Positions 13,875-39,678 of a stretch of 64,000 nt of DNA are shown here, in pieces. The notes under the pieces were generated by a model. It was given only the letters and a program-made list of their open reading frames with translations. It searched no databases and had not been told where the DNA came from. The position numbers and the translations under genes were made by a program. Position 1 is the first letter of the stretch. Each line of letters opens with the position of its first letter. This stretch comes from a virus. Lineage: Duplodnaviria; Caudoviricetes. Location of the stretch: IMG/VR virus record IMGVR_UViG_3300028886_000037, positions 128,001-192,000 of that record; one strand, 5' to 3'.

Positions 13875-14045
13875 TGAAGGCTCCTTGTTGAAGTTACATG
13901 ATCAATATAGGTATTTCCCTGAGAAATCTAAACCCCTAAAATCAAGAAAATCTACAAAAATAGGCAGACACAGTCACTGCCATGTCTGCCTGTATCGTCC
14001 TATTTGGCCCAGAACGATATTTGTTTTTCGGCTTTATCTGTGTAG

Positions 14046-14130
14046 TCCTCCAGGAGAGACTCGAACTCTCACGGGCATATTGCCCACCTGCCCCTCAAGC
14101 AGGCCCCTATACCAATTCGGGTACCGGAGG
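14046..14130 (-). tRNA. tRNA-Leu(GAG)
   Basis: cloverleaf, CCTGC-TT GAG GG-GCAGG, long variable arm. Confidence 0.9.
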
Positions 14131-14134
14131 AAAA

Positions 14135-14277
14135 CGAGATTCATTTTAGCGGACCGCCTCCTTTAACCACTTGGATATCTCCGCGAATGAGGTTGTTATG
14201 CGGAGAGACAGGATTCGAACCTGCGAAGGCGCAAGCCAGCGGTTTTACAGACCCTGGGAATTGCTGTTAGAATCTCT
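14135..14277 (-). ncRNA. ACAGCA-scaffold RNA E1 carrying circularly permuted tRNA-Tyr(GTA)
   Basis: GAGATTC/GAATCTC terminal stem + ACAGCAA; tRNA 3' half precedes 5' half. Confidence 0.8.
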
Positions 14278-14279
14278 AG

Positions 14280-14352
14280 CAGGGAAGACAGGATTTGAAC
14301 CCATACCTCGCAGATTTGGAGTCTCGTGTGCTGCCAGTTGCACCACTTCCCT
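14280..14352 (-). tRNA. tRNA-Trp(CCA)
   Basis: CT CCA AA loop; AGGGAAG/CTTCCCT, G73; imperfect anticodon stem. Confidence 0.8.
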
Positions 14353-14469
14353 GAATGCCTCTTTTGATCAATTTCAGAACTTGATCCTGCTGGTGGTAGT
14401 TTTCGATCACAGTGAAGTATCTCGAATTCACTGCTCTCTAGAGCAGAGGCTGAACCTTATCATTCCATA

Positions 14470-14542
14470 TTGCCCGTGATGGACTCGAACCACCGAATAC
14501 ACGAGTCAGAGTCGTGTGCCTTACCAACTTGGCGAACGGGCA
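14470..14542 (-). tRNA. tRNA-Gln(CTG)
   Basis: CACGA-CT CTG AC-TCGTG. Confidence 0.9.
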
Positions 14543-14549
14543 GAAAAAC

Positions 14550-14932
14550 ATGATAGGGACGCCGATCGTTGCTCATTTAAGGCTTATTGATCAGCCGCTG
14601 CTTCGTGTCTCTTCTCTCTTGATCCGAATAGCAGCTTACAAAAGATCAGTCAACGGTTTCTCGTTGACGCTATCTGGTGTGACCAGCACTATCTCTATTC
14701 TTATTAGAGCAAGCACCAAGTTCTTCGTCTTGGAACTAGTAGAGACTGGCATGACCTTACTGAGCAGTTTGCCCAGGAGTTAGACCGATGTTCTGACCAT
14801 CAGCCAAGGGAGCTGAGATTCAAGCTGTGCTGCTCAGCTCTCGCCCTGTCCTCGTTAGCCAAGGCAATTTCCAGTTGCTCTACGCTGCATCGGTTTGTAG
14901 GAATTAAGCTTTAGAGTTGCTGTGCCTATCAT
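14550..14932 (-). ncRNA. ACAGCA-scaffold RNA E2 with ~360-nt structured cargo
   Basis: ATGATAGG/CCTATCAT stem + ACAGCAA; internal hairpins; no minus-strand ORF. Confidence 0.6.
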
Positions 14933-14936
14933 TAAG

Positions 14937-15069
14937 AATCTCTGATGACGCATTACTGAGCTATCCTTTACGCGTTCTCAGCCACTATTCCGCAACTTAT
15001 GCTACTGCACTAGCCCCAAAAGGATCTACCTTGGACGGGCTTTTACTTACATCATCTTCATCAGTGATT
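14937..15069 (-). ncRNA. GATGTAAGTA-type stem RNA, copy 1
   Basis: AATCACTGATGA/TCATCAGAGATT outer stem; motif shared with 20624-20677. Confidence 0.45.
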
Positions 15070-15072
15070 TAG

Positions 15073-15146
15073 TCCCATAGCCGAGATTCGAACCCGAACT
15101 TCATGCGCCACAAGCATGCGTGCTAACCAATTAACACTACTGCGGG
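15073..15146 (-). tRNA. tRNA-His(GTG)
   Basis: CATGC-TT GTG GC-GCATG. Confidence 0.85.
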
Positions 15147-15151
15147 GATGT

Positions 15152-15238
15152 GTAACGAGAGCGTGATGGTGGGCAGTTTAGAACTGCCAAGAATCCTTGC
15201 GGATCACCATCTTCATTTCACCATCACGTTCTCGTTAC
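15152..15238 (-). ncRNA. long hairpin enclosing a T-arm-like module
   Basis: 20-bp outer stem enclosing ATCC-GCAA-GGAT and GGCAG-TTCTAAA-CTGCC. Confidence 0.55.
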
Positions 15239-15242
15239 TTAG

Positions 15243-15316
15243 TAGCTCTGTCGGGACTTGAACCCGAATTTCTAGCTTGAGAGGCTAACGAACTAAACCA
15301 GTTATTCGACGGAGCC
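15243..15316 (-). tRNA. tRNA-Glu(CTC)
   Basis: TTAGC-CT CTC AA-GCTAG. Confidence 0.9.
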
Positions 15317-15321
15317 AAAGA

Positions 15322-15440
15322 CGAGATTCACTTTAGCGGGACTCGAACCCGTAACCTCTTCACTATTTCAGTGAAGTGCTCTACCAATTGAGCTATTTTC
15401 CCAACGGCGGAAAAAACCAGAGTTTGCTGTTGGAATCTCT
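15322..15440 (-). ncRNA. ACAGCA-scaffold RNA E3 carrying an acceptor-less tRNA body
   Basis: GAGATTC/GAATCTC + ACAGCAA; D arm, CTTCACT-GAAAT-AGTGAAG arm and T arm, no acceptor stem. Confidence 0.75.
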
Positions 15441-15442
15441 AG

Positions 15443-15514
15443 AGCACCTAGCGAGGATCGAACTCGCGACTACAGTTTGGAAGACTATCATGTTAGCCAC
15501 TACACCATAGACGC
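15443..15514 (-). tRNA. tRNA-Gly(TCC)
   Basis: CT TCC AA loop, U73. Confidence 0.9.
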
Positions 15515-15520
15515 GGATGT

Positions 15521-16210
15521 TTAATTTATAGAGGAGAGGGTGGGATTCGAACCCACGGAGGTTTCCTCCTCATATAATTTAGTAAAATCATTTCCATACT
15601 TATTTTCGACGTATTCTAAGTATGGCTTAATCTCTCTTTTCGTAATAATCGAAAGCTCTTTAGGAAATTGGTCATATTTTGCTTGCCACTGCTTAGACCA
15701 ATATCCCTTCAATTCAACATATTTTCCATCGACTATGAAGTCTGGAAGATAGTTATATTCTTTGCCTTCGAATATGTACTTAAACTTTTCTTTGTTCCTT
15801 TCGAATTTTATTCCGTGTTCAAGATTATATATCACGTATGCTAGTTCCCAAGAGCTGTCGCAGAAATATCCTTTATACCAACCCTTCTTTCCACGACCAG
15901 ATCCTTTACGATAGCCACCTAATGTGTGCCTAATCTTATTAGTCTCTTTTATCTTTTGTCGTGTTTCTTCCGTTTGGGCATGTTTCTTATATTCGACCCT
16001 TTCTGGATTCTTATAACATCTTTTTTCATGGAATCTCAGTGTATGCTTATATTCAAAATAGTTTCCGCAAAATTTACAATTTCCACCTTTATTAAATAGG
16101 AATTTCTTATGCTCTTTTTTATGATTTTCAGACTTATGTTTCTGAAGATCTCTTCTACTAGTACCGACATATTCACAGAATGAACATGGCCAAGTGTATG
16201 ATAATCTCAT
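15521..16210 (-). CDS. Zn-finger + PD-(D/E)XK homing endonuclease
   Basis: C2H2 fingers; DSSWE..YLPDF..VELKGY; AT-rich; reads into the tRNA fragment. Confidence 0.85.
   Translation of the reverse strand: MRLSYTWPCSFCEYVGTSRRDLQKHKSENHKKEHKKFLFNKGGNCKFCGNYFEYKHTLRFHEKRCYKNPERVEYKKHAQTEETRQKIKETNKIRHTLGGYRKGSGRGKKGWYKGYFCDSSWELAYVIYNLEHGIKFERNKEKFKYIFEGKEYNYLPDFIVDGKYVELKGYWSKQWQAKYDQFPKELSIITKREIKPYLEYVENKYGNDFTKLYEEETSVGSNPTLSSIN
15532..15571 (-). pseudogene. 3' fragment of disrupted tRNA-Ser
   Basis: variable arm, T arm and CCTCTCC, complementary to GGAGAGG at 16391-16397. Confidence 0.8.
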
Positions 16211-16230
16211 ATTACTCTCTCAAAGAAGTA

Positions 16231-16318
16231 AAGCGGGTGTCCGATTCGAACGGACGAGAGGTTTTAACCTCTGCTTGGGTTCAGGCCAAGTGCGATAAAC
16301 CAACTCCGCCAACCCGCC
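16231..16318 (-). tRNA. tRNA-Ser(TGA), nested inside the insertion
   Basis: CTTGG-CC TGA AC-CCAAG, long variable arm. Confidence 0.85.
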
Positions 16319-16354
16319 ATAAATTATTTATACAATCAAGACTAGTGCTTTTTG

Positions 16355-16397
16355 CCAGTTTCAAATCCGGATCCATAAACCACTCGGACACCTCTCC
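16355..16397 (-). pseudogene. 5' fragment of disrupted tRNA-Ser(TGA)
   Basis: GGAGAGG-TG-TCCGAGTGGTTTATGGA-TCCGGA TT TGA AA CTGG, then unrelated sequence. Confidence 0.8.
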
Positions 16398-16404
16398 AAA
16401 GTAG

Positions 16405-16492
16405 AGGCGGGTGCAGGATTCGAACCTGCGGCTCCTTTATGGGGAGCAACTCGTTAGCACCGAGCCGGTTTAGACCACTCACCCAACCCGCC
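16405..16492 (-). tRNA. tRNA-Ser(GCT)
   Basis: GCTCG-GT GCT AA-CGAGT, long variable arm. Confidence 0.9.
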
Positions 16493-16495
16493 ATA

Positions 16496-16569
16496 TCCAC
16501 CCGCTAGGACTTGAACCTAGAACCTCGGGGTTATGAGTCCCTTGCACCAACCAATTGTGCTACAGATGG
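16496..16569 (-). tRNA. tRNA-Met or Ile2 (CAT)
   Basis: CT CAT AA loop. Confidence 0.8.
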
Positions 16570-16574
16570 GAATC

Positions 16575-16707
16575 AAGATGTCATCTGTGCTCCCGGGGCT
16601 GGACTCGAACCAGCAGCCTTCTGGCGTCTTACTGAGGAAGGTCCTCTGCGACAGCCGTTCTAACCAGTTGAACGTACCCTGGAAAATAGAATTGCGGTTG
16701 ACATCTT
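16575..16707 (-). ncRNA. scaffold RNA E4 (ACCGCAA variant) carrying an Asn-like tRNA with an expanded anticodon arm
   Basis: AAGATGTCA/TGACATCTT stem; D and T arms intact, anticodon arm enlarged by about 20 nt. Confidence 0.7.
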
Positions 16708-16714
16708 TTATTAG

Positions 16715-16761
16715 AGCTACCAGCAGGACTCGAACCTGCGAAGGGATGAACCCAGCAGATT
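16715..16761 (-). pseudogene. orphan 3' tRNA half (U73, long variable arm; Cys-like)
   Basis: AATCTGC-variable arm-GCAGG TTCGAGT CCTGC-TGGTAGC-T, starting at the endonuclease stop. Confidence 0.75.
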
Positions 16762-17374
16762 ATAACAATTTACTGAGGATTCCCTCTATATAGGTTCGTT
16801 TAGCCTCTTTAGGAAGACGTTGGTATTCGGACCAATTACAGCGTCCTAATAGCGTCCATCCTTGCTCCTTTAAATTCTCTGTTCTTTCTTCATCATGTAA
16901 TTTTCCTTTTGATGTGTAATGCGTCTTGCCATCAACTTCAAAATAAAGCTTTTTATCAGGCCATGCAAAATCTAACCAATAGGGTTTTACATAATAGTTA
17001 TTTTCAAATTTTACGTTCTCATTTGTAAAAATGTTAAACCAACTTTGCTCAGCATAACTTCGTTTTCGTCTTCCTATCCATGAACTTGCGCGTCCTTCTC
17101 TATGTGCTTTTTTCATTCCGAGAGAAATTCTTTTGCATATAGCTTCGGTGTTTTTATGTCCTTTACATCGCAGCTTATTTGGATTCTTCTCGCAATGCAT
17201 TTCATGTCTAGTCATTTCACCACGAGTAATATGCTTGATTTTACCGCAGTATTTACATTTTAAATCATATTTAGGTGCTTGGCCATTTTTAATCTTATGT
17301 TCTTCGCTTTTATGCTTATAGAGCTTTCTACGTGATTCGATTTCAGCACCGCAATGTTCGCATACCCAAATCAT
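16760..17374 (-). CDS. Zn-finger + DUF559/Vsr-like homing endonuclease
   Basis: YWLDFAWP..FEVDGKTH. Confidence 0.85.
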   Translation of the reverse strand: MIWVCEHCGAEIESRRKLYKHKSEEHKIKNGQAPKYDLKCKYCGKIKHITRGEMTRHEMHCEKNPNKLRCKGHKNTEAICKRISLGMKKAHREGRASSWIGRRKRSYAEQSWFNIFTNENVKFENNYYVKPYWLDFAWPDKKLYFEVDGKTHYTSKGKLHDEERTENLKEQGWTLLGRCNWSEYQRLPKEAKRTYIEGILSKLL

Positions 17375-17396
17375 TTTTATTTCTCCATTTTAGCTT

Positions 17397-17478
17397 TATA
17401 GTCGTTCCAGCGACCATATTATTTATAGCAGTTAGAAGAACTGGAGATGTTCCTCAGCTGGCTGGAACCAGTTGTCCC
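17397..17478 (-). promoter_or_regulatory. structured endonuclease leader copy 2
   Basis: GGGACA-hairpin(TTCCAG)-CTGA-hairpin-CTAAC-TATAAATA-hairpin(CTGGAA). Confidence 0.7.
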
Positions 17479-17487
17479 ACTATAGTA

Positions 17488-17575
17488 AGCGCTCAGTTGG
17501 ATTTGAACCAACGTGGAGATTTCTCTCAGCGGCTTTGCAGGCCGTGGTCTTCGACCAGGCTCGACCCATGAGCGC
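17488..17575 (-). tRNA. tRNA-Cys(GCA) with long variable arm
   Basis: CGGC-CT GCA AA-GCCG, U73. Confidence 0.85.
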
Positions 17576-17586
17576 ATATTGTTTAG

Positions 17587-17660
17587 TACTCCGTCCAAGA
17601 TTCGAACTTGGATCAAGGGCTTCGTAGGCCCGTATGCTGAGTCCATTACACCAACGGAGC
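17587..17660 (-). tRNA. tRNA-Arg(ACG)
   Basis: CT ACG AA loop. Confidence 0.9.
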
Positions 17661-17665
17661 ATAGT

Positions 17666-17781
17666 CAAGATAACGTCTTTTGAGCTGAGTCCTGAGCCAC
17701 TAGACGACACCGGTATACGCCGATGACTGGATTCGAACCAGTGTTGCAGCTTTGGGATAGTGAAGATGCTGTTGTTATCTT
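17666..17781 (-). ncRNA. ACAGCA-scaffold RNA E5 carrying a circularly permuted tRNA (CCC, Gly-like)
   Basis: AAGATAAC/GTTATCTT; TCCCAA-AGCTG, T arm, acceptor closed by loop, D arm, CAGCT. Confidence 0.8.
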
Positions 17782-17785
17782 ATAG

Positions 17786-17868
17786 TCCTCCAGGAGGGAC
17801 TTGAACCCTCACGCCATTTCTGGCACCAGTTCCTAAGACTGGCGTGTCTGCGATTCCACCACCAGAGG
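17786..17868 (-). tRNA. tRNA-Leu(TAG)
   Basis: CCAGT-CT TAG GA-ACTGG. Confidence 0.9.
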
Positions 17869-17872
17869 ATAG

Positions 17873-17945
17873 TGCCACCCCTCCGTAACGATCGGAGATC
17901 CTCGGATTTTCAGTCCGTTGCATAGACCATCTTTGCTAGAGTGGC
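17873..17945 (-). tRNA. tRNA-Phe(GAA)
   Basis: CT GAA AA loop; atypical T loop ATCGTTA. Confidence 0.8.
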
Positions 17946-17950
17946 ATAAT

Positions 17951-18008
17951 CGAGATTCTTTTGTTTCTTAACCAAAAAGAAGATTTTAGAGTTGCTGTAA
18001 GAACCTCT
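17951..18008 (-). ncRNA. minimal ACAGCA-scaffold RNA E6
   Basis: GAGGTTCTT/AAGAATCTC + ACAGCAA. Confidence 0.65.
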
Positions 18009-18011
18009 TAG

Positions 18012-18085
18012 TCGGCAACCTTGGACTTGAACCAAGAACCTCTGCCTTATCAGAGCAGTGCTCTAACCAATTGAGCTAGATGCCG
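18012..18085 (-). tRNA. tRNA-Ile(GAT)
   Basis: CT GAT AA loop. Confidence 0.9.
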
Positions 18086-18096
18086 ATAAAAAATTT

Positions 18097-18165
18097 CAAG
18101 ATCCATTTTTCTAACGTAGTCTGATTACCAATCGGATGTTATAAGAATTTTGCAGTTAGGATCTT
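18097..18165 (-). ncRNA. scaffold RNA E7 (ACTGCAA variant)
   Basis: AAGATCC/GGATCTT stem. Confidence 0.6.
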
Positions 18166-18171
18166 TAGTAG

Positions 18172-18200
18172 TCTCCGATCAGGGATTCGAACCCCGGACC
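18172..18200 (-). pseudogene. 3' fragment of disrupted tRNA (Val-like)
   Basis: T arm + ATCGGAG-A, pairing with CTCCGGT at 18963-18969. Confidence 0.8.
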
Positions 18201-18211
18201 TGAAACTTTTA

Positions 18212-18285
18212 TCTTCGACCTAGGACTTGAACCTAGAACATCCGTCTTGTAAGGGCGGCGCTCTAACCAATTGAGCTAGCCGAAG
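18212..18285 (-). tRNA. tRNA-Val(TAC), nested inside the insertion
   Basis: CCGCC-CT TAC AA-GACGG; overlaps the endonuclease stop. Confidence 0.9.
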
Positions 18286-18919
18286 TTACGAACGATTTAA
18301 TTGATGAAATTGCCTCTGAAGTATTTCTCATTATGTACTTCCAAGTCAATCTCAGACATTTCCAACCGTTCTCTTTGCAATAAGTGTCTTTTTCGACATC
18401 CATTGCTTTTCTGCTGGGCCATTCATGTTGAGATCCATCAATTTCCAGATAGATCTTTAATTCTGGCCAAGCAAAATCCATGAACCATTTGCCAAAATGA
18501 TATTCTTCAACAAATGGAAAATTAGAAAGCTCCGTTTCGAGTAACCTCTTTGTCCATTCTTCAGCATAAGATCTTTTACATTTACTTCTCGACGACCACC
18601 AGATTCCGCCATTTTCTTTTATCTGTTTCTTACGAATTTCAGATAGCTTCTTCTTTGTGGCTTCAGTATGTTTAGATCCCAAGCGTAAGGCATTTTCGCC
18701 TGAATACCTTTTGCTAAAAGTTTCACTTGCTTGTTTTACTCTCGGATCATTATCCTTAGTTAGTCCTTTGTTCCAAGAAGGATGAGATTTAGAAAAGCCG
18801 TGTTCATCTTTGTGATGTTTCTGGAGTTCTCGTCTCGTTCTACCAACGAACGGACAATACTTGCAGCACCAGTCACCAGATGCGTTTTTCTGTTTTCTCT
18901 CTTTCTCATATCTTCCCAT
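18263..18919 (-). CDS. Zn-finger + NUMOD3 + DUF559-like homing endonuclease
   Basis: SWNKGLTK; WFMDFAWP..LEIDGSQH. Confidence 0.85.
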   Translation of the reverse strand: MGRYEKERKQKNASGDWCCKYCPFVGRTRRELQKHHKDEHGFSKSHPSWNKGLTKDNDPRVKQASETFSKRYSGENALRLGSKHTEATKKKLSEIRKKQIKENGGIWWSSRSKCKRSYAEEWTKRLLETELSNFPFVEEYHFGKWFMDFAWPELKIYLEIDGSQHEWPSRKAMDVEKDTYCKENGWKCLRLTWKYIMRNTSEAISSIKSFVTSASSIG

Positions 18920-18933
18920 ATTTTATTTATAGG

Positions 18934-18969
18934 AAGGATGGCACTCTGAACCAGCTGAGTTAACCGGAG
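18934..18969 (-). pseudogene. 5' fragment of disrupted tRNA (Val-like)
   Basis: CTCCGGT-TA-D arm-CCATC-CTT, then TATAAATA. Confidence 0.8.
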
Positions 18970-18975
18970 AGATAG

Positions 18976-19049
18976 TGCCCCACCAAGGACTTGAACCTTG
19001 AACTCTCTGCTTAAGAGGCAGATACTCTAACCAATTGAGTTAGTGAGGC
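18976..19049 (-). tRNA. tRNA-Lys(CTT)
   Basis: TCTGC-CT CTT AA-GCAGA. Confidence 0.9.
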
Positions 19050-19055
19050 ATATAG

Positions 19056-19128
19056 TTCCGGTAGCAGGGATCGAACCTGCGACTTTCTCCGTATGAAGGA
19101 GATGCTCTACCAACTGAGCTATACCGGG
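19056..19128 (-). tRNA. tRNA-Met(CAT)
   Basis: TCTCC-TT CAT AC-GGAGA. Confidence 0.85.
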
Positions 19129-19198
19129 GGGAAATCCACTGGCAGTTTGTGAGATACTGCCTAAACTCCTGAGGGCTACCTCAGAAAGCTAAAAGATA

Positions 19199-19270
19199 CG
19201 AGATAGAGTGGCCTTGCGCCACGAAACCGCATGATGGAGCAGAGGGGTGAAACTTGCTGTGTCTATCTCA
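19199..19270 (-). ncRNA. ACAGCA-scaffold RNA E8
   Basis: GAGATAGA/TCTATCTC + ACAGCAA; GCAA tetraloop hairpin. Confidence 0.65.
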
Positions 19271-19277
19271 AATTTAG

Positions 19278-19351
19278 TAGCGCCATCGGGACTCGAACCC
19301 GAATTTCCGACTTGAAAGGCCGGTGAACTGAACCAGTTATTCGATGGCGCC
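19278..19351 (-). tRNA. tRNA-Glu(TTC)
   Basis: CT TTC AA loop. Confidence 0.9.
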
Positions 19352-19356
19352 AAAAG

Positions 19357-19465
19357 CGAGATACGTTCTTTGTGTATAGCCCATCTGACTTTCGTCAGAC
19401 TTGCAGCTTTTCAGCTTATGGATTCGAACCACTTACAGTAAGAAATCATTGCTGTTTGTATCTCT
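19357..19465 (-). ncRNA. ACAGCA-scaffold RNA E9 with a T arm and two GAAA hairpins
   Basis: GAGATAC/GTATCTC; GTGG-TTCGAAT-CCAT; AGCT-GAAA-AGCT; TCTGAC-GAAA-GTCAGA. Confidence 0.7.
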
Positions 19466-19595
19466 TTTTCAAATGTGTCAGATACGGCGGATTCGAACCG
19501 CGATCTCAGACGTTGCGACATCTGGGACTTTTTGCACCGTCTCCACGACGGGACCGAAGCTACCTGCTTGTCAGAAGAGATAGAGTTCGCAACCT

Positions 19596-20414
19596 CTAAA
19601 ACTTCCTATCGGTACATATCCTACGCTTAGTAGCGGGACCGGGACTAGAGTCCCGGTCAGAAATGCTAAAACTTTCTTGAATTTTGATAGTCTGTAATAA
19701 TCTGAAAATTTCGTTTTCTCTTTCAATTTTAGAAAGTTTTTGAAATTCAGACCATCTAATTCTTTTTAAGAGCATCCAACCGTTTTCTATTAAAAATTCC
19801 GTTCTGATCTTGTCGTGTTCGATACCTTCTTTAGTATAGTGCTGTTCTCCATCAACTTCAATGTATATTTTTGATTTAGTCCATGCAAAATCTAAAGTAT
19901 ATCGGCCAACTTGATGTTGAGTTTCGGCATCTGTAAATATAGTTTCAAAATACTCTTCAGCATAAGATTTTCTTTTGTTTAACCAATTACAGTGTGTACC
20001 GCTAAGATTTTTAATAGCTGCATCTGATAATTTCCTTTTAGTTTCATCCGAAGTTTTATGACCTTGCCAAATTTGCTTATTCGGATTTTCTTTACAAAAC
20101 TTTTCGTGTCTTGTTAAATCGCAAGCTCTTTTATAAATTAAACCACAGAATTGACAAGGTATGTTTAAATCTGGATGATAGCCATAGAATTTACCTTTGA
20201 TTTCGTTAATATGTCCTTCTTTGCGATGCTGTTGTAATCTACTTCGTGAATGAAAATCATTGCCACAAATTGAACATTTCCAAATTTTAGAATTCTTTTG
20301 TATTCCTCTATTCGGATTTTTAAGACACTGCTTAGAAATGTGTGTTCCTAATTGTGCCCCAGTAGTAAACTCCATGTTACAAAATTTACATATATGTTTT
20401 ATTTCCAATTCCAT
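19596..20414 (-). CDS. multi-Zn-finger + DUF559-like homing endonuclease
   Basis: three C2H2-like fingers; YTLDFAW..IEVDGEQH; start MELEIK after TATAAATA. Confidence 0.85.
   Translation of the reverse strand: MELEIKHICKFCNMEFTTGAQLGTHISKQCLKNPNRGIQKNSKIWKCSICGNDFHSRSRLQQHRKEGHINEIKGKFYGYHPDLNIPCQFCGLIYKRACDLTRHEKFCKENPNKQIWQGHKTSDETKRKLSDAAIKNLSGTHCNWLNKRKSYAEEYFETIFTDAETQHQVGRYTLDFAWTKSKIYIEVDGEQHYTKEGIEHDKIRTEFLIENGWMLLKRIRWSEFQKLSKIERENEIFRLLQTIKIQESFSISDRDSSPGPATKRRICTDRKF
19631..19657 (-). pseudogene. degenerate 3' fragment of initiator-type tRNA
   Basis: CCGGG..CCCGG-TCCCGCT-A, same 3' end as the intact fMet. Confidence 0.55.
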
Positions 20415-20453
20415 ATAGTATTTATAACATGAGCTAACCACTGCTCTAAATTA

Positions 20454-20537
20454 TAGCGGGAGCCAGAGTCGGACTGGCACAAGCATTATCTGTCCCTGGG
20501 TTATGAGCCCAGTATCTTACCATTAGACTATCCCGCG
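20454..20537 (-). tRNA. initiator tRNA-fMet(CAT) with enlarged variable region
   Basis: C1 mismatch; CTGGG-CT CAT AA-CCCAG. Confidence 0.8.
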
Positions 20538-20544
20538 ATAATAG

Positions 20545-20619
20545 TGGACCGTAAGGGAATCGAACCCTTGACATCCAGCTTGCAAAGCTGGCGCTCTACC
20601 AAAACTGAGCTAACAGCCC
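20545..20619 (-). tRNA. tRNA-Ala(TGC)
   Basis: G3.U70; TT TGC AA. Confidence 0.9.
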
Positions 20620-20623
20620 GAAA

Positions 20624-20677
20624 GAATCTGTGAATGGCTCTGACCTCGAAAGGTTCTCCGTACTTACATCACAGATT
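20624..20677 (-). ncRNA. GATGTAAGTA-type stem RNA, copy 2
   Basis: AATCTGTGA/TCACAGATT outer stem. Confidence 0.45.
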
Positions 20678-20681
20678 TTAG

Positions 20682-20754
20682 CTGTCCCACCTGGACTCGA
20701 ACCAGGGACGGGGTGATTAACAGTCACCTACTCTACCAACTGAGCTATGGGACA
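20682..20754 (-). tRNA. tRNA-Asn(GTT)
   Basis: GGTGA-CT GTT AA-TCACC, G73. Confidence 0.9.
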
Positions 20755-20771
20755 TTAAAGATAAAGCCGAA

Positions 20772-20812
20772 GATTTCAATATGCAGATCGGATTCTCGAT
20801 CCAGATCTTTTT
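20772..20812 (-). promoter_or_regulatory. boxB/boxA-like leader (also 24049-24087 and 26360-26395)
   Basis: AGATC..hairpin..GATCTGCATATTGA repeated three times ahead of tRNA runs. Confidence 0.6.
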
Positions 20813-20894
20813 TGTTTGATTCTAATATAGAAACTTCTTTCGGGTTTGTAAACCCTCTTTCTCAGAATTTTTTGAGAAAGTTGTTTATTTATAG

Positions 20895-20967
20895 CTCCCT
20901 GTGGACGACTTGAACGACCGACATCGAAATTACAAATTTCGCGTTCTACCAACTGAACTAACAGGGA
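20895..20967 (-). tRNA. tRNA-Thr(TGT)
   Basis: CGAAA-TT TGT AA-TTTCG. Confidence 0.85.
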
Positions 20968-21052
20968 ATAAGAGCGCTGAGGATATGAGTGAAAAGCTAT
21001 CTCGAGTTCACAGTTCATCGGATATCCTCTCTAAGCATCCTCATCTTCACGT

Positions 21053-21127
21053 GATCGACGAGTGGATTGGAACCACCGCACCAGGCCCCGAATGGGCCTG
21101 CGCTCTACCATGCTGAGCTACGAAGAT
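21053..21127 (-). pseudogene. aberrant tRNA-like element (Pro-like)
   Basis: D and T arms present; 7-bp anticodon stem with 5-nt loop; poor acceptor stem. Confidence 0.55.
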
Positions 21128-21156
21128 ACGTCCTTGAATTCAGACGCTTAGATTAG

Positions 21157-21240
21157 TGGGTAAGGTAGGATTCGAACCTACTAAGCCCGAAGGCAACGGC
21201 TTTACAGGCCGCCCCAACTCACCATCGTTGGCGCTTACCC
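21157..21240 (-). tRNA. tRNA-Tyr(GTA)
   Basis: GCGGC-CT GTA AA-GCCGT, long variable arm. Confidence 0.9.
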
Positions 21241-21528
21241 TTGTACGGCCGGTCATTTATAGTCTTGTGACCGAAGACTTTACCCAACTCACGCTTATGC
21301 CGTTATTTTTCGCGATAGAACCATCACATGTGATGGTAGAATCGAATTCAAGATTCCAGCGGCCTGGTCAGGATGCTTATGCCTATGCTCTCCCCTGACT
21401 CCTTCACAGCCTTCGTCCGCTTGTCTATACGGACTTCTGCTGATCAACCAGTAAGCGCCCTTCCATTGGATCCAATTGACGGCGAAGTAGCGCTCAATGT
21501 AGCGGCCTTTGCAAGGATGGCGACTCCA

Positions 21529-22230
21529 CTATTGCCAGAGTCTCTCCTTCAATTCATAGCGGGACCGATGGGATTCGAACCCACAGCCTCCAGCCTTATT
21601 TTCATAAAGCATTTCTATTCGTTCAGTCCCGTATTTTTTATAAACGTACTCTAAATACTTTTTCATCTCTCTTCTATATAGGACGATTAACGGATATTTG
21701 AAAGTTCTTAATTTTTCCTCCCATCTATTATTTCTACGTCCTTTTATTTCATAATATGTATCGCCTATTTTAAAATCAGGATAGTATTTATGGATTTCTC
21801 CATTGCTTACATATTCAAAGCCTATTTTATTTCTCTCAAATTCTATTCCGTGATCTAAATTATAAATTACGAAAGCTAATTCCCAACGTGAATTGCAATA
21901 AAAGCCTTTATACCATCCAGAATAAATAGTACCAGATTTTTCTCTATAACCACCGCATCCAGCAGCTTTAGAAGTCTCTCTTAACTTCTCTTTTAATTCG
22001 TCCGTCATTCTATGCTTTCTATAGCAATCTTTACAAAATCCGGTCGAATTACGATTATCTAAAGATTTTCCGCAGTCTTTACAAAATCTCTTTTCAGTTT
22101 TTGAAAATAGTTTTGATAGTCTTCTCTTTAGTTCTTCTGTTCTTATTCTGCTATTAGCGCATGCTCTTGAGCAGAATCTTCCGCTTCCAAAAGAGCCATC
22201 ATGCTCTTTTCCACATTTTTCGCAGATCAT
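21529..22230 (-). CDS. Zn-finger + PD-(D/E)XK homing endonuclease
   Basis: CEKCG..RFCSRAC; NSRWE..YYPDF..YEIKGR. Confidence 0.85.
   Translation of the reverse strand: MICEKCGKEHDGSFGSGRFCSRACANSRIRTEELKRRLSKLFSKTEKRFCKDCGKSLDNRNSTGFCKDCYRKHRMTDELKEKLRETSKAAGCGGYREKSGTIYSGWYKGFYCNSRWELAFVIYNLDHGIEFERNKIGFEYVSNGEIHKYYPDFKIGDTYYEIKGRRNNRWEEKLRTFKYPLIVLYRREMKKYLEYVYKKYGTERIEMLYENKAGGCGFESHRSRYELKERLWQ
21560..21595 (-). pseudogene. orphan 3' half of tRNA (Asp-like)
   Basis: GGCTGG-AGGCT-GTGGG TTCGAAT CCCAT-CGGTCCC-G73, inside the endonuclease 3' end. Confidence 0.75.
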
Positions 22231-22254
22231 ATAGCCTCTTTTAACTTTATTTTA

Positions 22255-22339
22255 ACGAGGATCCTTCCATATCCTCGTATTATTTATAGAGGTTAGATCG
22301 AATGGCGAATTCGATCAGGAGGTGGAAGCCTCTTGTCCC
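22255..22339 (-). promoter_or_regulatory. structured endonuclease leader copy 3
   Basis: GGGACA-hairpin(CTTCCA)-CTGA-hairpin-CTAAC-TATAAATA-hairpin(TGGAAG). Confidence 0.7.
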
Positions 22340-22348
22340 TCTTTTTAA

Positions 22349-22422
22349 CGATGCCGGCGAGATTCGAACTCGCGTATGTCGGTTAGACAGACCGATGTGT
22401 TAGGCCACTTCACCACGGCACC
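22349..22422 (-). tRNA. tRNA-Asp(GTC)
   Basis: TCGGT-CT GTC TA-ACCGA, G73. Confidence 0.9.
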
Positions 22423-22427
22423 AGAGA

Positions 22428-23290
22428 CGAGATAGTTTTTCTTACGCGCTCTACCAGTTGAGCTACCTCACAGCATGGCTGCAAGGACGTTAAAATACAC
22501 ATCTCAATAATATCTTCCTATTAGTAATTTATCAGAACTAAAAGCCGATGAATTACAAATATATTCTTTATATTTTGGTATATAACACTTAAATAATCTT
22601 ACAATTTCTGGCAAAAGAGGAATGTTTTCTAATTTTGCAAATTCTCTAATTGACTTATAATTTCCAGAATGGAAATAGTCCCATAATTCCCTTGCTCTAT
22701 TAAATGCACTTATTTTACTTTTGTTAAAGAGTATACTATTTTCTCCTCTAAATAGATTTCTTCCAAGAACCCAATCCTTATTAGGTAAAATTTTGAATTT
22801 TTTGCATTCTCCATTGATTCTATTCGTATACCATTTAGTTCCGTATTGTGAATTTTTATTTCCTTTTTGTTTCAATTTCATACTTTCAGAAACGTATTTT
22901 GCAAATTCTGTTCTAAGCTTTTCGTATGCTCTAGAATTCATATAACGACTCTTATCTTCTGTAGGATGTCCTCTCATCCTCCAGAAGGCATACATCATTT
23001 TTCTTCTCTCATCTGTTCCCTTCTTGAATATCTTTACCAATAGCCAATGACAGAGGAAATGCTCTCTAGCAGTCAAAGGAACTAAGTTATCACGTTGATC
23101 CGATCCTCCTAAAGAACTAGGAAGAATATGATGTTCTTCATAATAACCTTCCGGTTTTCCTCTTATCTTTGCCCTATATACTATTTTCAGATAAACTTTT
23201 CTATAATCCATGTATTATTTATACATTTCATATCTCGAACCCGCAACATCGGTCTTAACAGGACATTTGAGAGTTGCTGTAACTACCTCT
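22428..23290 (-). ncRNA. ACAGCA-scaffold RNA E10 (permuted Asn-like tRNA) interrupted in its T loop by an HNH gene
   Basis: halves 23234-23290 and 22428-22489; GAGGTAGTT/AACTATCTC stem. Confidence 0.75.
22504..23211 (-). CDS. HNH homing endonuclease
   Basis: EEHHILPSSLGGSD..NLVPLTAREHFLCHWLL; TATAAATA upstream. Confidence 0.9.
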   Translation of the reverse strand: MDYRKVYLKIVYRAKIRGKPEGYYEEHHILPSSLGGSDQRDNLVPLTAREHFLCHWLLVKIFKKGTDERRKMMYAFWRMRGHPTEDKSRYMNSRAYEKLRTEFAKYVSESMKLKQKGNKNSQYGTKWYTNRINGECKKFKILPNKDWVLGRNLFRGENSILFNKSKISAFNRARELWDYFHSGNYKSIREFAKLENIPLLPEIVRLFKCYIPKYKEYICNSSAFSSDKLLIGRYY

Positions 23291-23340
23291 AAAATTCAAA
23301 CTGACCCTACTCACCTCAACGCGTCTTATTGGCTTTCAGT

Positions 23341-23412
23341 TAGCGCATGCGAGACTCGAACTCGCAGCCAGCGGCTTTCGACCGCCCGTTCTTCCATTGA
23401 ACGATATGCGTT
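23341..23412 (-). pseudogene. aberrant tRNA-like element (GAA in a non-canonical loop)
   Basis: D and T arms present; GGCGG-TC GAA AG-CCGCT lacks U33. Confidence 0.55.
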
Positions 23413-23427
23413 ATCAGTTAAACACAG

Positions 23428-23500
23428 CGCTGGAAGACAGGCTCGAACTGCCGATCGTCTGCTTACGAAGCAGCTGCTCTACCAGCTGAGCTATTCCAGC
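23428..23500 (-). tRNA. tRNA-Thr(CGT)
   Basis: TT CGT AA loop. Confidence 0.85.
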
Positions 23501-23700
23501 GAATAAGAGTACCGGACCCGAGTTTCTTTCCAGAGCGTCCTCTAGTCTTACGCTCGGGTCCTAGATCAAATCGTGCAGTATGGCAGTGAGGTTGGTCTCC
23601 TTCTCACATCTACGGCGCTAATGCTTAAATCGACCAAAGTGTCGAACCGTGCTCTTTTTATAGACATCTAAGCTATGCCTTGCACAATGTTGATCGTTAG

Positions 23701-23774
23701 TCGGGCATGCAGGATTCGAACCTGCGACCTGGTGCTCCCAAAGCATCCGCTCTACCAGACTGAGCTAATGCCCG
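23701..23774 (-). tRNA. tRNA-Pro(TGG)
   Basis: TT TGG GA loop; CGG/CCG-A acceptor. Confidence 0.9.
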
Positions 23775-23959
23775 ATGACGCCAGTACTAATTCTTGCATG
23801 AAAGTTCCTGACTTGCGAATCTCCTATACTGAAAGAAAATATATCCGCGACGATCGGATGCACTTTGTAGTCCACGTCCAGAGTATGCAACCTCCAGAGC
23901 GTAGAGCCTCTGTTCTTACCACAGTTCATTTTCTATCGCCAGTGTGATCGGCCATTTAG

Positions 23960-24033
23960 TGGACACAGATGGGGTTCGAACCCATGACCCTCTGCTTGCT
24001 AAGCAGATGTTCTACCAGCTGAACTACTGGCCC
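23960..24033 (-). tRNA. tRNA-Ala(AGC) with bulged acceptor
   Basis: TCTGC-TT AGC AA-GCAGA; G3.U70. Confidence 0.7.
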
Positions 24034-24167
24034 ATAAGAAGTTTCCGGTTTTTCAATATGCAGATCCGGTTCTCGACTGGATCTTTTGTTGTTGATCAAA
24101 ATATACTAAAACGAAGCGGAGTTGTAAATACCTCCGCTTCAAAAAATTTGAATTTTTTTGATGGAGG

Positions 24168-24575
24168 TTACCTGATAGGATCCTTGAGCATGTTTAGATA
24201 CTTCAGAGAGCAGAAGGCATCCTTCAGAACGTGGCGCTTGTTGTAGTACTTGATCTGCCATTCGAACTTGCGGTATGGACGGTAACCGAGCAGCTGAGCT
24301 TCTGTGCCGTCTTCGCAGCGGAACCAATGACCGATAGGACTCTGACCTTCTAGCGAAGTTCCCTTGAGCATATCCTTGAGCTGATCAAGAACATAGCCTG
24401 GAATCTTTGCGTCTCCCGAGGCGTCTACTTCTGCCAGCTCTAGAATGCACTTAGCTTCGTAGTCGCTGTACTTGAATGAGATTCCGTTGAGACGGAGGTT
24501 GTTCTCCTTTGCCCAGTCCTTGAGCACCGGATTGAGTTGTTCGCGGAGAGAGTCGCACTTGCTAGAATTGAACAT
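24168..24575 (-). CDS. hypothetical protein
   Basis: ORF with AAGGA RBS after TATAAATA. Confidence 0.65.
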   Translation of the reverse strand: MFNSSKCDSLREQLNPVLKDWAKENNLRLNGISFKYSDYEAKCILELAEVDASGDAKIPGYVLDQLKDMLKGTSLEGQSPIGHWFRCEDGTEAQLLGYRPYRKFEWQIKYYNKRHVLKDAFCSLKYLNMLKDPIR

Positions 24576-24608
24576 GTCTTTATCCTTGTTGTGTTTGTTT
24601 ATTTATAG

Positions 24609-24699
24609 TTGAGCAGGCTGGATTCGAACCAGCGACGGAGGAACTTCCTCTCTAGTGGCTTCAAAGGCCACCGCCTTGACCAGACTTGGCGACTGCCCA
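24609..24699 (-). tRNA. tRNA-Gln(TTG) with long variable arm
   Basis: GTGGC-CT TTG AA-GCCAC; U1-A72. Confidence 0.8.
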
Positions 24700-24705
24700 A
24701 GATAG

Positions 24706-24788
24706 TAGCCGAGGAGAGACTCGAACTCTCACGAGGTTGCCCTCCATGAATTTTAAGTTCACTGCGTCTTCCGTTCCGCCACTCGGCC
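24706..24788 (-). tRNA. tRNA-Leu(TAA)
   Basis: CT TAA AA loop, long variable arm. Confidence 0.9.
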
Positions 24789-24794
24789 AGATTC

Positions 24795-24986: not shown

Positions 24987-25019
24987 AAGATCTCCAAGTT
25001 TTTAGTGTTGTATTTATAG

Positions 25020-25280: not shown

Positions 25281-25289
25281 ATGTGTTTC

Positions 25290-38015: not shown

Positions 38016-39191
38016 TTACATTCTGTCTACAGCATCTTGGTAGATCTTTTCGATCTCGCCACGGAGAATGTCGCCGAAGACGGGACCAGGCTCATAGCCC
38101 TCTGCCTTGAGACGGTCAGAGATTGCAGTCTGGTCGATCTCGATCTTAGCGAGCTGCAGAGCTTCGGGAATCCTCATAGCCCAGTCGGGAAGTTCACGCT
38201 GATCGAGAATGCTGATGAAAGTTTCCCAGTCTCCCTTGACGAACTGAACCATCTCGGTCCAGCTCATCAGTTCCTCTCGATTGGACAAGAATCTCTTATA
38301 CCACTTCAGCTGCTTCTTCTCTTCTCTCGTGAGCAGGCAGAGCTCTGCCTGACGATCCCACTGCTGACTGAACATAGTCATCATCACGAAGACAGAAGTC
38401 TTGCCGAAAGAGGGAGCCCTGAGCGCTGCGACATGAAGAGCGTGCAGATCGATCCATTCGAACATGGGGCAGACGTCCGTGATTCCAGTCTTGCTCAGAA
38501 TGTTGAGGAACAGCTGGAATCCGCACTCTTTGTTCTTGACAGCAGAGATCTCTTTGCGGATTCTCTCGTTAGAGAGACCCTTAGTCAGAGCAGCGTTGTC
38601 CTTCATAGCCTTGTACGTGTCGGGCTCGATCTCGTACCCGAAGTTGACAGCGAAACGTGCGCCACGGAGAATCCGGAGAGAGTCTTCCTTGAATCGCTTG
38701 TCGGGATCACCGACAGCACGCAGAACGTGATCTTCGATGTCGTGAATGCCGTCGAAAGGATCGATGATGTTTCCTTCGCCATCCATGCCCATAGCGTTGA
38801 TCGTGAAGTCACGACGGGCAGCGTCTTCCTTGAAGTCTCTCGTGAAAGCCACAGTGTCTGGATGACGACCGTCAGAGTAGTCGCCGTCAGTACGGAACTG
38901 AGTCACTTCGAACGGATAGCCGTAGATGTTGAAGACCAAGATAGTTCCGTGAGCTTCGCCGTTGTTAGACTCAGTGCGGAAGTTCTTCTTGAGCGCGTCG
39001 ATTGGCATGTTAGTCGCTATGTCCACGTCGTGCAGATCCAAGACGTTAGTCTGGCCGAGCTCGACGCGAACCATGTCTCTCACCGAGCCGCCGACGATGT
39101 AAGCTTCGTGACCGTAGTCGCGGATTCTCTTGCAGAGATCCATAGCGCAGTTGAGCGCAGAAGACTGGAAGCGGTTAGTGTTGATTTTCAT
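38016..39191 (-). CDS. cca: CCA-adding tRNA nucleotidyltransferase (class II)
   Basis: VGGSVRD, DVDIAT, RRDFTINA, EDSLRILRGARF; own early promoter. Confidence 0.9.
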   Translation of the reverse strand: MKINTNRFQSSALNCAMDLCKRIRDYGHEAYIVGGSVRDMVRVELGQTNVLDLHDVDIATNMPIDALKKNFRTESNNGEAHGTILVFNIYGYPFEVTQFRTDGDYSDGRHPDTVAFTRDFKEDAARRDFTINAMGMDGEGNIIDPFDGIHDIEDHVLRAVGDPDKRFKEDSLRILRGARFAVNFGYEIEPDTYKAMKDNAALTKGLSNERIRKEISAVKNKECGFQLFLNILSKTGITDVCPMFEWIDLHALHVAALRAPSFGKTSVFVMMTMFSQQWDRQAELCLLTREEKKQLKWYKRFLSNREELMSWTEMVQFVKGDWETFISILDQRELPDWAMRIPEALQLAKIEIDQTAISDRLKAEGYEPGPVFGDILRGEIEKIYQDAVDRM

Positions 39192-39678
39192 TAGTTGGTC
39201 CTCTTGTTGAAGGTTACGCTTCAAATATATGAAAATCCTGTCTGTTTGTAAATAGCAGTCTTCCATTTTTAGTAATTTTTAGTCCGACATTTTAAGCCGT
39301 AGCGCTGGAACGAAGCACAACTCAATGATGCTGTCGGTAAGCGTGCGCCGTTCGCGATGGAACTCCTCTCGCACGAATGAACGAACATGGAGTATCGAAG
39401 CACGATTGTAGCTATTCGTGCACACAGCCGCCATTAGCGCCTGAAGATGTAGCTGGAATACAGGATGACCGATCCATAAGCTTCAGGGTGAGTCTACTCA
39501 TAAGTCGACGGGCGAAGGAGTCAGCAAAAGACGTTCTTCAGAGGTCAGAGACAGTGAGATTCCTGAATAGGCTCATTGTCTCTGGGCTCTGGATGTAGCA
39601 AAAGAAAGCTCAGCTCCGCTTCGCAACAGAAAAACCTCAGGATCAGATCCTGAGGTTTTGTAAATTTATCGTTACGTG

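What the first reader, a model, noticed from the sequence alone, without database searches (positions are those of the whole stretch)
14135..23290. Family of ten ACAGCA-scaffold RNAs with interchangeable, often tRNA-derived cargo (Y-RNA/YrlA-like system)
Seen: ten minus-strand elements between tRNAs (14135, 14550, 15322, 16575, 17666, 17951, 18097, 19199, 19357, 22428-23290) share one layout. Each has a 7-9 bp terminal stem whose sequence varies while pairing is kept (GAGATTC/GAATCTC, ATGATAGG/CCTATCAT, AAGATGTCA/TGACATCTT, AAGATAAC/GTTATCTT, AAGATCC/GGATCTT, GAGATAGA/TCTATCTC, GAGATAC/GTATCTC). ACAGCA(A) (variants ACCGCAA, ACTGCAA) follows within 0-2 nt, then a cargo of ~35-360 nt: permuted tRNAs, an acceptor-less tRNA, a lone T arm, or other hairpins. 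Several start just after a tRNA 3' end. Known: bacterial Y RNAs have a protein-binding terminal stem (Ro60/Rsr) plus an effector module, which in YrlA mimics tRNA. Inference: a modular phage RNP system with one protein-binding handle and many tRNA-mimic effectors, for example decoys for anticodon nucleases or adaptors for RNA repair. The handle differs from the canonical Ro60 motif and no TROVE gene is in this window.
Basis: partly seen in the sequence, partly recalled or inferred. Interest (0 to 1): 0.95.

Follow-up and report, generated by a model that had tools for sequence, protein, structure and literature searches.

The report
Phage Y-like RNAs, Ro60-shaped partner
A large cattle-rumen phage hides ten small RNA genes among its tRNA genes. 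Each is closed by the same short "handle" and most carry tRNA look-alike parts, and the same handle marks the gene of a Ro60-shaped ring protein in many phages and gut bacteria, so these RNAs are probably that protein's undescribed partners.

Summary
Confirmed. All ten elements have a 7-bp terminal helix, exactly 2 nt, then AC(A/C/T)GCA, with a G after the helix (10 seen, 0.4 expected in shuffles). The 248-kb phage has no TROVE hit. About 55 kb away it has a DUF2828/DUF7788 gene whose model folds like Ro60 (Z 23), just downstream of an RNA ligase gene and with an eleventh handle in its leader. Among related DUF2828 genes, 81 of 153 have a handle just upstream, against 0-1 of about 140 at control positions. 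The stems covary: 206 pair with their own arm, 28 when arms are swapped. Cargoes include inside-out tRNAs with a sealed acceptor and an anticodon loop, acceptor-less tRNAs, anticodon stem-loops and a conserved 383-nt RNA. One copy is broken by a homing endonuclease gene. They fail YrlA's motif and Rfam tests but share its topology. The handle matches Dictyostelium Class I RNAs in sequence and register. Best reading: Y-like partner RNAs of a Ro60-like ring, acting as tRNA decoys or repair adaptors; binding is inferred. I found no paper on the RNA family. This scan noted the same family before in at least 38 other genomes.

The parts
14136..14276 (-). E1: handle + circularly permuted tRNA-Tyr(GTA) mimic (anticodon loop, V arm, T arm, acceptor sealed by a ~15-nt loop, D arm)
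   Evidence: re-ordered, ARAGORN calls tRNA-Tyr(gta); ortholog in G002 with a different acceptor stem
14550..14932 (-). E2: handle + ~360-nt multi-hairpin cargo; member of a conserved ~380-nt subfamily lying between tRNA-His and tRNA-Gln
   Evidence: fold z -3.95; 18 of 104 and 34 of 83 predicted pairs with changes on both sides; distant homologs L011 and L012, E 6e-22 and 2e-16, within 3 kb of DUF2828 genes; no Rfam match
15323..15439 (-). E3: handle + hairpin + acceptor-less tRNA body (D arm, extended anticodon-position hairpin, T arm)
   Evidence: (tRNA model positions 7-64 only)
16575..16707 (-). E4: handle (ACCGCAA variant) on the acceptor ends of a normal-order tRNA-like body with an expanded anticodon region
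17667..17781 (-). E5: handle + circularly permuted tRNA-Gly(CCC) mimic with sealed acceptor
   Evidence: re-ordered, ARAGORN calls tRNA-Gly(ccc); the G002 ortholog has degenerate T and D loops
17952..18007 (-). E6: minimal 56-nt member, handle + one hairpin; weak match to Dictyostelium Class I RNA
18098..18165 (-). E7: handle (ACTGCAA variant) + anticodon-arm-like hairpin
   Evidence: near-identical in G002
19200..19269 (-). E8: handle + two short hairpins
19358..19464 (-). E9: handle + lone T arm + two GNRA-tetraloop hairpins
   Evidence: fold z -4.17; orthologs
22429..23289 (-). E10: handle + permuted tRNA mimic (GTT anticodon loop, T arm, sealed acceptor, D arm), interrupted in the T loop by a homing endonuclease gene
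   Evidence: the intact G002 ortholog re-ordered is called tRNA-Thr(ggt)
22504..23211 (-). HNH-type homing endonuclease ORF inserted in E10 (not part of the RNA design)
   Evidence: phrog_655 E 3.9e-40; absent in relatives
24100..24128 (-). sigma70-like promoter heading the array; a second copy at 20824-20852, and a terminator-like hairpin at 13962-13991 closes the array
   Evidence: consensus scan only
38016..39266 (-). CCA-adding tRNA nucleotidyltransferase gene, candidate accessory enzyme. Three further parts lie outside the window, on the minus strand of the same genome: the DUF2828/DUF7788 Ro60-like gene (G000 205863-207368), an eleventh handle in its leader (G000 207399-207454) and an Rnl1-type RNA ligase gene (G000 207680-208855)
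   Evidence: for the outside parts

Best explanation
The ten elements are small RNA genes of a Y-RNA-like ribonucleoprotein system. SHOWN: they share a covarying 7-bp clamp helix plus ACAGCAA, they sit between the tRNA genes of one array, and the same handle is tied to DUF2828 genes, whose product has the Ro60 ring + vWA fold in a predicted model. INFERRED (about 0.75): the RNAs are cut out of the polycistronic tRNA transcript by processing of the neighbouring tRNAs, and the phage DUF2828 protein binds the handle as Ro60 binds the Y-RNA stem. The copy in the gene's own leader would then give feedback repression when free protein exceeds the RNAs. INFERRED (about 0.45): the cargoes are tRNA mimics (whole L-shapes with a sealed acceptor, acceptor-less bodies, anticodon stem-loops, T arms) that occupy or recruit tRNA-recognising host proteins. 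They would act as decoys for tRNA-cleaving defence nucleases, or as adaptors that bring tRNA-shaped substrates and the phage's RNA ligase and CCA enzyme to the ring, keeping translation running during infection. E10 is probably inactivated by the endonuclease insertion.
For: Handle: 10 seen vs 0.42 expected. Among 383 unselected ACAGCAA sites upstream of DUF2828 genes, 206 pair with their own 5' arm vs 28 +/- 5 with swapped arms, and the count peaks at register 0. Link to the protein: 81 of 153 DUF2828 genes have a handle ending within 150 nt upstream (a few overlapping the start) vs 0-1 of 136-147 at control offsets. Handles number 289 vs 38 (viral loci) and 156 vs 22 (prokaryote-genome loci) on the gene strand vs the opposite strand. 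In relative L012 the handle-rich tRNA array, including the E2 homolog, lies directly upstream of the DUF2828 gene. T5, ET08 and phiCbK lack DUF2828 and have no ACAGCAA handle in their tRNA arrays. Protein: pLDDT 90.7; all 13 Foldseek hits at E<=0.001 are Ro60/Rsr; Z 23.0 over 405 residues to Ro60-RNA 1yvp; MIDAS-like DGSGS at 295-299 and 19 basic positions conserved in at least 90% of homologs, 16 of them in the N-terminal ring. Cargo: anticodon stem-loops in 54 of 223 de-duplicated members vs 7.7 +/- 2.7 shuffled, with Lys-UUU the commonest (9 vs 0.35); T arms in 56 of 359 vs 0.1. Literature: the homologous Bas63 gp130 (30% identical, E 4e-65) counters the Ppl defence system, and the authors guessed that Y RNAs hide among its tRNAs (bioRxiv 10.1101/2024.10.10.617714); I find two handle RNAs there. 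ROT/TROVE proteins of jumbo phages are listed among RNA repair components (PMC7824862).
Against: In this genome the ten RNAs are about 55 kb from the protein gene, not within 4 kb as for YrlA. DUF2828-positive Aeh1 showed no handle in the stretches scanned, and about a quarter of the prokaryote-genome loci had none nearby. E8 and the large E2 show no tRNA-like part, so the decoy idea cannot cover every member. The loci are partly related, so counts overstate independent events. The negative control is only three phages.
Confidence: 0.7

Rival explanations
1. Same RNP, different job. As in the RYPER complex, the RNAs gate the ring's cavity or tether it to a host exoribonuclease (PNPase) to degrade or mature structured RNA, and the tRNA look only recruits processing and modifying enzymes that stabilise the RNA.
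For: This is the demonstrated role of Y RNAs in Deinococcus and Salmonella (PMC4201824) and was shown in vitro for phage phiLo Ro60 (PMC12135203). The fold is shared.
Against: It does not explain why one phage keeps ten different cargoes or why intact anticodon loops are enriched.
Confidence: 0.25
2. The handle is only a cis signal, such as a processing or stability site in the tRNA polycistron or an operator in the DUF2828 mRNA, and the 'cargo' is not released as a stable partner RNA.
For: Copies abut tRNA genes, and one sits in the leader next to the ribosome-binding site. In KVP40 a 6-of-7-pair version appears to overlap the start codon.
Against: The helix closes around conserved, covarying cargo up to 360 nt long. 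Many relatives have tandem free-standing copies far from tRNAs.
Confidence: 0.1
3. E1, E5 and E10 are true circularly permuted tRNA genes that are cut and re-ligated, for example by the phage RNA ligase, into working tRNAs.
For: Re-ordered, they are called tRNA-Tyr(GTA), -Gly(CCC) and -Thr(GGT). The genome has an Rnl1 ligase and a CCA enzyme and no conventional tRNA-Gly(CCC).
Against: The other seven members have no permuted tRNA. Conventional tRNA-Tyr(GTA) and -Asn(GTT) are present. The E5 ortholog has degenerate T and D loops. E10 orthologs switch anticodon loop between GTT, GGT and GAT.
Confidence: 0.07
4. The elements are debris of tRNA duplications and homing-endonuclease invasions, with a repeated selfish motif.
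For: Six endonuclease ORFs break tRNA genes in this array, and one breaks E10.
Against: Compensatory changes in handle and cargo, synteny in relatives, and the tight link to DUF2828 genes in unrelated phages and bacteria.
Confidence: 0.03

Closest known systems
YrlA / bacterial and phage Y RNAs with Ro60 (Rsr) (Rfam RF02553; Chen et al. 2014, PMC4201824; phage phiLo Ro60 with Yrl1/Yrl2, PMC12135203)
   Same: Terminal helix joining the 5' and 3' ends, a conserved 5' motif, and a tRNA-like module in the order T arm, sealed acceptor, D arm (E1, E5, E10). Genetic link to a HEAT-ring + vWA protein.
   Different: The motif is ACAGCAA after a 7-bp helix, not GNCGAA. The partner is DUF2828/DUF7788 (10-16% identity to solved Ro60s, no PF05731 match). 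There are ten copies per genome with many cargo types, the permuted members keep an anticodon loop, one cargo is 360 nt, a copy sits in the protein's own leader, and no element reaches the RF02553 cut-off.
Dictyostelium Class I RNAs (Rfam RF01414; Kjellin et al. 2021, PMC7919456)
   Same: Short terminal stem kept by structure rather than sequence, a conserved ~11-nt motif right after its 5' strand, and a variable interior. E6 matches 10 consecutive consensus bases, with ACAGCAA starting at position 10 in both.
   Different: Class I RNAs are eukaryotic, 42-65 nt long and driven by the DUSE promoter, with no tRNA cargo described. Their reported binder is an RRM protein. E6 scores 20.3 bits against a cut-off of 41.5.
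Felixounavirus Bas63 gp130 and the mycobacteriophage 'Ro-like RNA binding protein' (PHROG 850; bioRxiv 10.1101/2024.10.10.617714)
   Same: Same protein family (30% identity; 709 cultured-phage records). Ro60 likeness already noted, and Y RNAs among the tRNAs were speculated.
   Different: In the passages I read, that work names no partner RNA, motif or structure.
Large ornate phage RNAs GOLLD and ROOL (for E2 only)
   Same: A large, multi-hairpin, covarying RNA in a phage tRNA array.
   Different: No Rfam match. It is shorter (about 380 nt) and closed by the ACAGCAA handle.

Membership tests
YrlA Y RNA (RF02553) | GNCGAAN0-1G motif near the 5' end | tested here: not met
   Absent from the first 30 nt of all ten; definition from PMC4201824
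YrlA Y RNA (RF02553) | Score above the Rfam gathering cut-off (69 bits) | tested here: not met
   Best overlaps with elements 18.8-20.4 bits; intact E10 ortholog 38.2 bits on the tRNA-like part only; genome-wide none over cut-off
YrlA Y RNA (RF02553) | tRNA-like domain in the order T arm, closed acceptor stem, D arm | tested here: met
   E1, E5 and E10 or its ortholog; not in the other seven
YrlA Y RNA (RF02553) | Encoded within 4 kb of a TROVE-domain (PF05731) gene, same strand | tested here: not met
   No PF05731 match in the genome; the DUF2828 gene is on the same strand but about 55 kb from the array
YrlA Y RNA (RF02553) | Physical binding to the Ro60 ortholog | not testable with these tools
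   No RNA-protein assay or RNA-protein complex prediction is offered
Ro60/Rsr protein family (for the DUF2828 partner) | HEAT-repeat ring followed by a vWA domain with a MIDAS motif | tested here: met
   Z 23.0, rmsd 4.0, 405 aligned to 1yvp; Foldseek E about 1e-7 to Ro60; DGSGS 295-299, T368 and D399 invariant or nearly so. Predicted model, not a solved structure
Ro60/Rsr protein family (for the DUF2828 partner) | Sequence match to TROVE PF05731 or to solved Ro60 chains | tested here: not met
   only a sub-threshold vWA_Ro60 hit, E 0.0096
Dictyostelium Class I RNA (RF01414) | Short terminal stem with the conserved 11-nt motif next to its 5' strand | tested here: met
   E6 aligns over the motif in the same register; definition in PMC7919456
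Dictyostelium Class I RNA (RF01414) | Score above the gathering cut-off (41.5 bits) | tested here: not met
   20.3 bits, E6 only
Dictyostelium Class I RNA (RF01414) | DUSE promoter about 60 nt upstream, dictyostelid genome | tested here: not met
   The source is a phage record and the upstream DNA is tRNA genes
Circularly permuted tRNA genes (red and green algae, Thermofilum; from memory) | 3' half upstream of 5' half, re-ordering to a full cloverleaf | tested here: met
   (E1, E5, E10 ortholog)
Circularly permuted tRNA genes (red and green algae, Thermofilum; from memory) | Maturation to a charged tRNA through a circular intermediate | not testable with these tools
   Only assembled contigs, no raw small-RNA reads, were on offer
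GOLLD / ROOL large phage RNAs (for E2) | Match to the Rfam models | tested here: not met
   No match in E2 or its homologs at E up to 0.5-10

The most novel reading that the evidence does not exclude
DUF2828/DUF7788 is a second, widespread Ro60 lineage with its own RNA class. One protein-binding handle carries a phage-specific library of tRNA mimics (inside-out tRNAs displaying anticodon loops, lone anticodon stem-loops, T arms, and a 380-nt structured RNA) that neutralises tRNA-targeting immunity. The same handle survives in eukaryotes as the unexplained Class I RNAs of social amoebae.
Probability: 0.3. Interest if true: 0.92.

Novelty: new variant of a known kind. Interest (0 to 1): 0.76.

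Why it matters
It names candidate RNA partners for a protein family found in 709 cultured phage records and many gut bacteria, whose Ro60 likeness was noted but whose RNAs were only guessed at. It gives a minimal 56-nt binding element and a laboratory system (Bas63 in E. coli, where the protein already has a counter-defence phenotype) in which binding, autoregulation and the decoy idea can be tested at once. It shows that part of the 'spacer' in phage tRNA arrays is a structured RNA class missed by tRNA finders and Rfam. It also offers a concrete hypothesis for what Dictyostelium Class I RNAs bind. This genome adds an unusually rich set of cargo types and a conserved 380-nt member.

Tried and rejected
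Rfam at gathering threshold found only tRNAs and one cow-rumen-2 RNA in the window. TROVE PF05731 and RtcB PF01139 were not found in the genome (a 98%-complete linear record). Sequence searches of the PDB with the protein or its profile found no Ro60, so the likeness rests on the predicted fold. T4 rnaC and rnaD were checked as possible known members and do not carry the handle. E2 has no blastn match among cultured phages. A possible twelfth copy at about G000 111050-111083 has almost no loop, lies in a 158-codon ORF and is missed by model R1, so I left it out. Model R1, built from 54-62-nt members, finds only short members and missed the Felix O1-type and KVP40 elements, so its negatives are weak. 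Pair counts on alignment A2 are circular because rows were chosen for pairing; the swap test is the valid covariation test. RNA-library contigs from four studies cover E1-E3, E8, E9 and the empty E10 site of relatives, but contigs cannot show strand, ends or level, so this does not show discrete transcripts. Literature searches (DUF2828; YrlA + phage; Ro60 + phage + Y RNA; Ro60-like + phage; ACAGCAA) found no description of the RNA family. The library lacks most subscription papers, and the 2020 Annual Review on bacterial Ro60 could not be read. No complex prediction was run because the tool does not take RNA.

Full report
Source. The window is positions 128001-192000 of a 247,923-bp phage record. 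Near-identical sequence occurs mostly in bovine-gut metatranscriptomes. The finding lies in a minus-strand array of 37 ARAGORN tRNA genes, with promoter-like sites at 24128 and 20852 and a terminator-like hairpin at 13991.

Observation. All ten elements are real. The layout is stricter than reported: a 7-bp helix, exactly two bases, AC(A/C/T)GCA, the cargo, the 3' strand, then G. Ten such elements occur in 9.4 kb against 0.42 +/- 0.63 in 300 dinucleotide shuffles. Eight end 5-7 nt before a tRNA gene and five begin 2-7 nt after one, so normal tRNA processing could release them (inference). Rfam has no family for them.

Cargo. E1, E5 and E10 are inside-out tRNAs: anticodon loop, T arm, acceptor stem closed by a loop, D arm, with the handle entering through a break in the 5' strand of the anticodon arm. 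Re-ordered, ARAGORN calls them tRNA-Tyr(GTA), tRNA-Gly(CCC) and, for the intact ortholog of E10, tRNA-Thr(GGT). E3 is an acceptor-less tRNA body, E4 a normal-order body held by its acceptor ends, E9 a lone T arm with two tetraloop hairpins, E7 an anticodon-arm-like hairpin, and E6 and E8 simple hairpins. E10 is split in its T loop by a homing endonuclease gene. Two relatives have it intact, and an RNA-library contig joins across the gene with other letters between the two sides, which points to a strain without the insertion rather than to splicing. E2 is a 383-nt RNA (z -3.95) with close homologs and distant ones (E 6e-22 and 2e-16). The distant ones also lie between tRNA-His and tRNA-Gln and show many compensatory changes. 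The complete relative G002 keeps the same elements in the same order, with compensatory changes, and has three more.

Partner protein (outside the window, same genome). There is no TROVE match. A DUF2828/DUF7788 gene lies at G000 205863-207368 on the same strand, directly downstream of an Rnl1-type RNA ligase gene at G000 207680-208855. An eleventh handle (G000 207399-207454) ends 30 nt before its start codon. The AlphaFold model (pLDDT 90.7) matches only Ro60/Rsr structures at E<=0.001 and scores Z 23.0 over 405 residues against the Ro60-RNA complex 1yvp, at 10-16% identity to solved Ro60s. It has a MIDAS-like motif and many conserved basic residues in the ring. The family is common in cultured phages (709 records; often annotated 'RNA-binding protein' or 'Ro-like RNA binding protein').

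Link between handle and protein. Around 165 DUF2828 loci, handles are seven times more frequent on the gene's strand than on the other (445 vs 60). 81 of 153 genes have one ending within 150 nt upstream of the start, against 0-1 of 136-147 at control offsets. In a test free of selection for pairing, 206 of 383 ACAGCAA sites pair with their own upstream 7-mer, against 28 +/- 5 when arms are swapped between sites. In relative L012 the handle-rich tRNA array sits directly before the gene, which bridges the 55-kb gap in this genome. T5, ET08 and phiCbK lack DUF2828 and have no ACAGCAA handle in their tRNA arrays. KVP40, Felix O1-type phages and mycobacteriophage Silverleaf have both. Aeh1 has the protein but showed no handle. 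The loci are partly related and the control set is small.

tRNA mimicry is family-wide. Anticodon stem-loops occur in 54 of 223 de-duplicated members (7.7 expected), Lys-UUU most often (9 vs 0.35), and T arms in 56 of 359 (0.1 expected). From my own knowledge, tRNA-Lys(UUU) is the target of PrrC and PARIS. That fits a decoy role but does not prove one.

Mechanism. The most likely reading is a Y-RNA-like RNP. The Ro60-shaped DUF2828 ring grips the handle (about 0.75), the leader copy gives feedback control, and the cargoes present tRNA shapes as decoys for tRNA-cleaving defences or as adaptors for repair by the phage's ligase and CCA enzyme (about 0.45). A RYPER-like tether to an exoribonuclease is the main alternative (about 0.25). 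The homolog Bas63 gp130 (30% identical) was found to counter the Ppl defence, and those authors speculated that some of its 'tRNAs' are Y RNAs. Two handle RNAs, one a permuted tRNA mimic, lie in that array.

Comparison with known families. It works like YrlA (PMC4201824) but is not a member: no GNCGAA motif, scores far below the cut-off, and a different protein family. The handle matches Dictyostelium Class I RNAs in sequence and register (PMC7919456) but scores below that family's cut-off, and common descent is untested. I found no paper describing the RNA class. Earlier notes of this scan report the same family in at least 38 other genomes. I had found the DUF2828 gene and its leader copy before reading them; the leads to follow the Class I match and the Felix O1-type phages came from them and were checked here.

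Verdict. A real, conserved, apparently unpublished class of structured phage RNAs with a strongly linked Ro60-fold protein. It is a new variant of the Ro60/Y RNA kind, with binding and function still to be shown. Interest 0.76.

Noticed in passing
window 15521-16210, 16760-17374, 18263-18919, 19596-20441, 21529-22230, 22504-23211 (-): Six endonuclease-like ORFs (DUF559, HNH and others). Most are preceded by a T4-like late promoter TATAAATA or a near match. They break tRNA genes; e.g. the cassette at 18200-18933 splits a tRNA-Val(TAC) and carries a replacement tRNA-Val. RNA-library contigs of a relative lack three of them.
   Followed up: partly
window 14045-27415 (-): Most tRNA genes end in N-CTA instead of N-CCA, and the phage encodes a CCA-adding enzyme (38016-39266).
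   Followed up: partly
window 14936-15068, 15150-15238, 14356-14466, 20969-21050 (-): Further long hairpin elements between tRNAs without the handle. The first is conserved in G002 but absent in other relatives.
   Followed up: no
window 21250-21555 (-): A ~300-nt non-coding stretch with no Rfam match, covered by a deep RNA-library contig; a candidate further structured RNA.
   Followed up: no
window 24128-24045 and 20852-20770 (-): Two copies of the same promoter followed by a similar leader with a hairpin.
   Followed up: no
window 39394-39500 (+): cow-rumen-2 RNA (RF02947, 98 bits) next to the CCA-adding enzyme gene.
   Followed up: no
window 25019-25091 (-): tRNA with anticodon TTA (ochre suppressor-like) called by ARAGORN.
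   Followed up: no
window 40700-42367 (-): 555-aa TnpB/Cas12f-like gene (OrfB_IS605 + TNB domains).
   Followed up: no
L242 (Vibrio phage KVP40, NC_005083 about 169700-177500, -): Handle RNAs of 87, 213 and 247 nt in the tRNA array, and a motif copy whose 3' arm appears to overlap the start codon of the DUF2828 gene.
   Followed up: partly
L247:22240-22296 and 22782-22906 (Bas63, MZ501086): Two handle RNAs in the tRNA array just downstream of gp130; the longer one is a permuted tRNA mimic.
   Followed up: partly
L012:4382-4606: Two handle elements in tandem, the second an E4-like tRNA body with an ACCGCAA motif.
   Followed up: no
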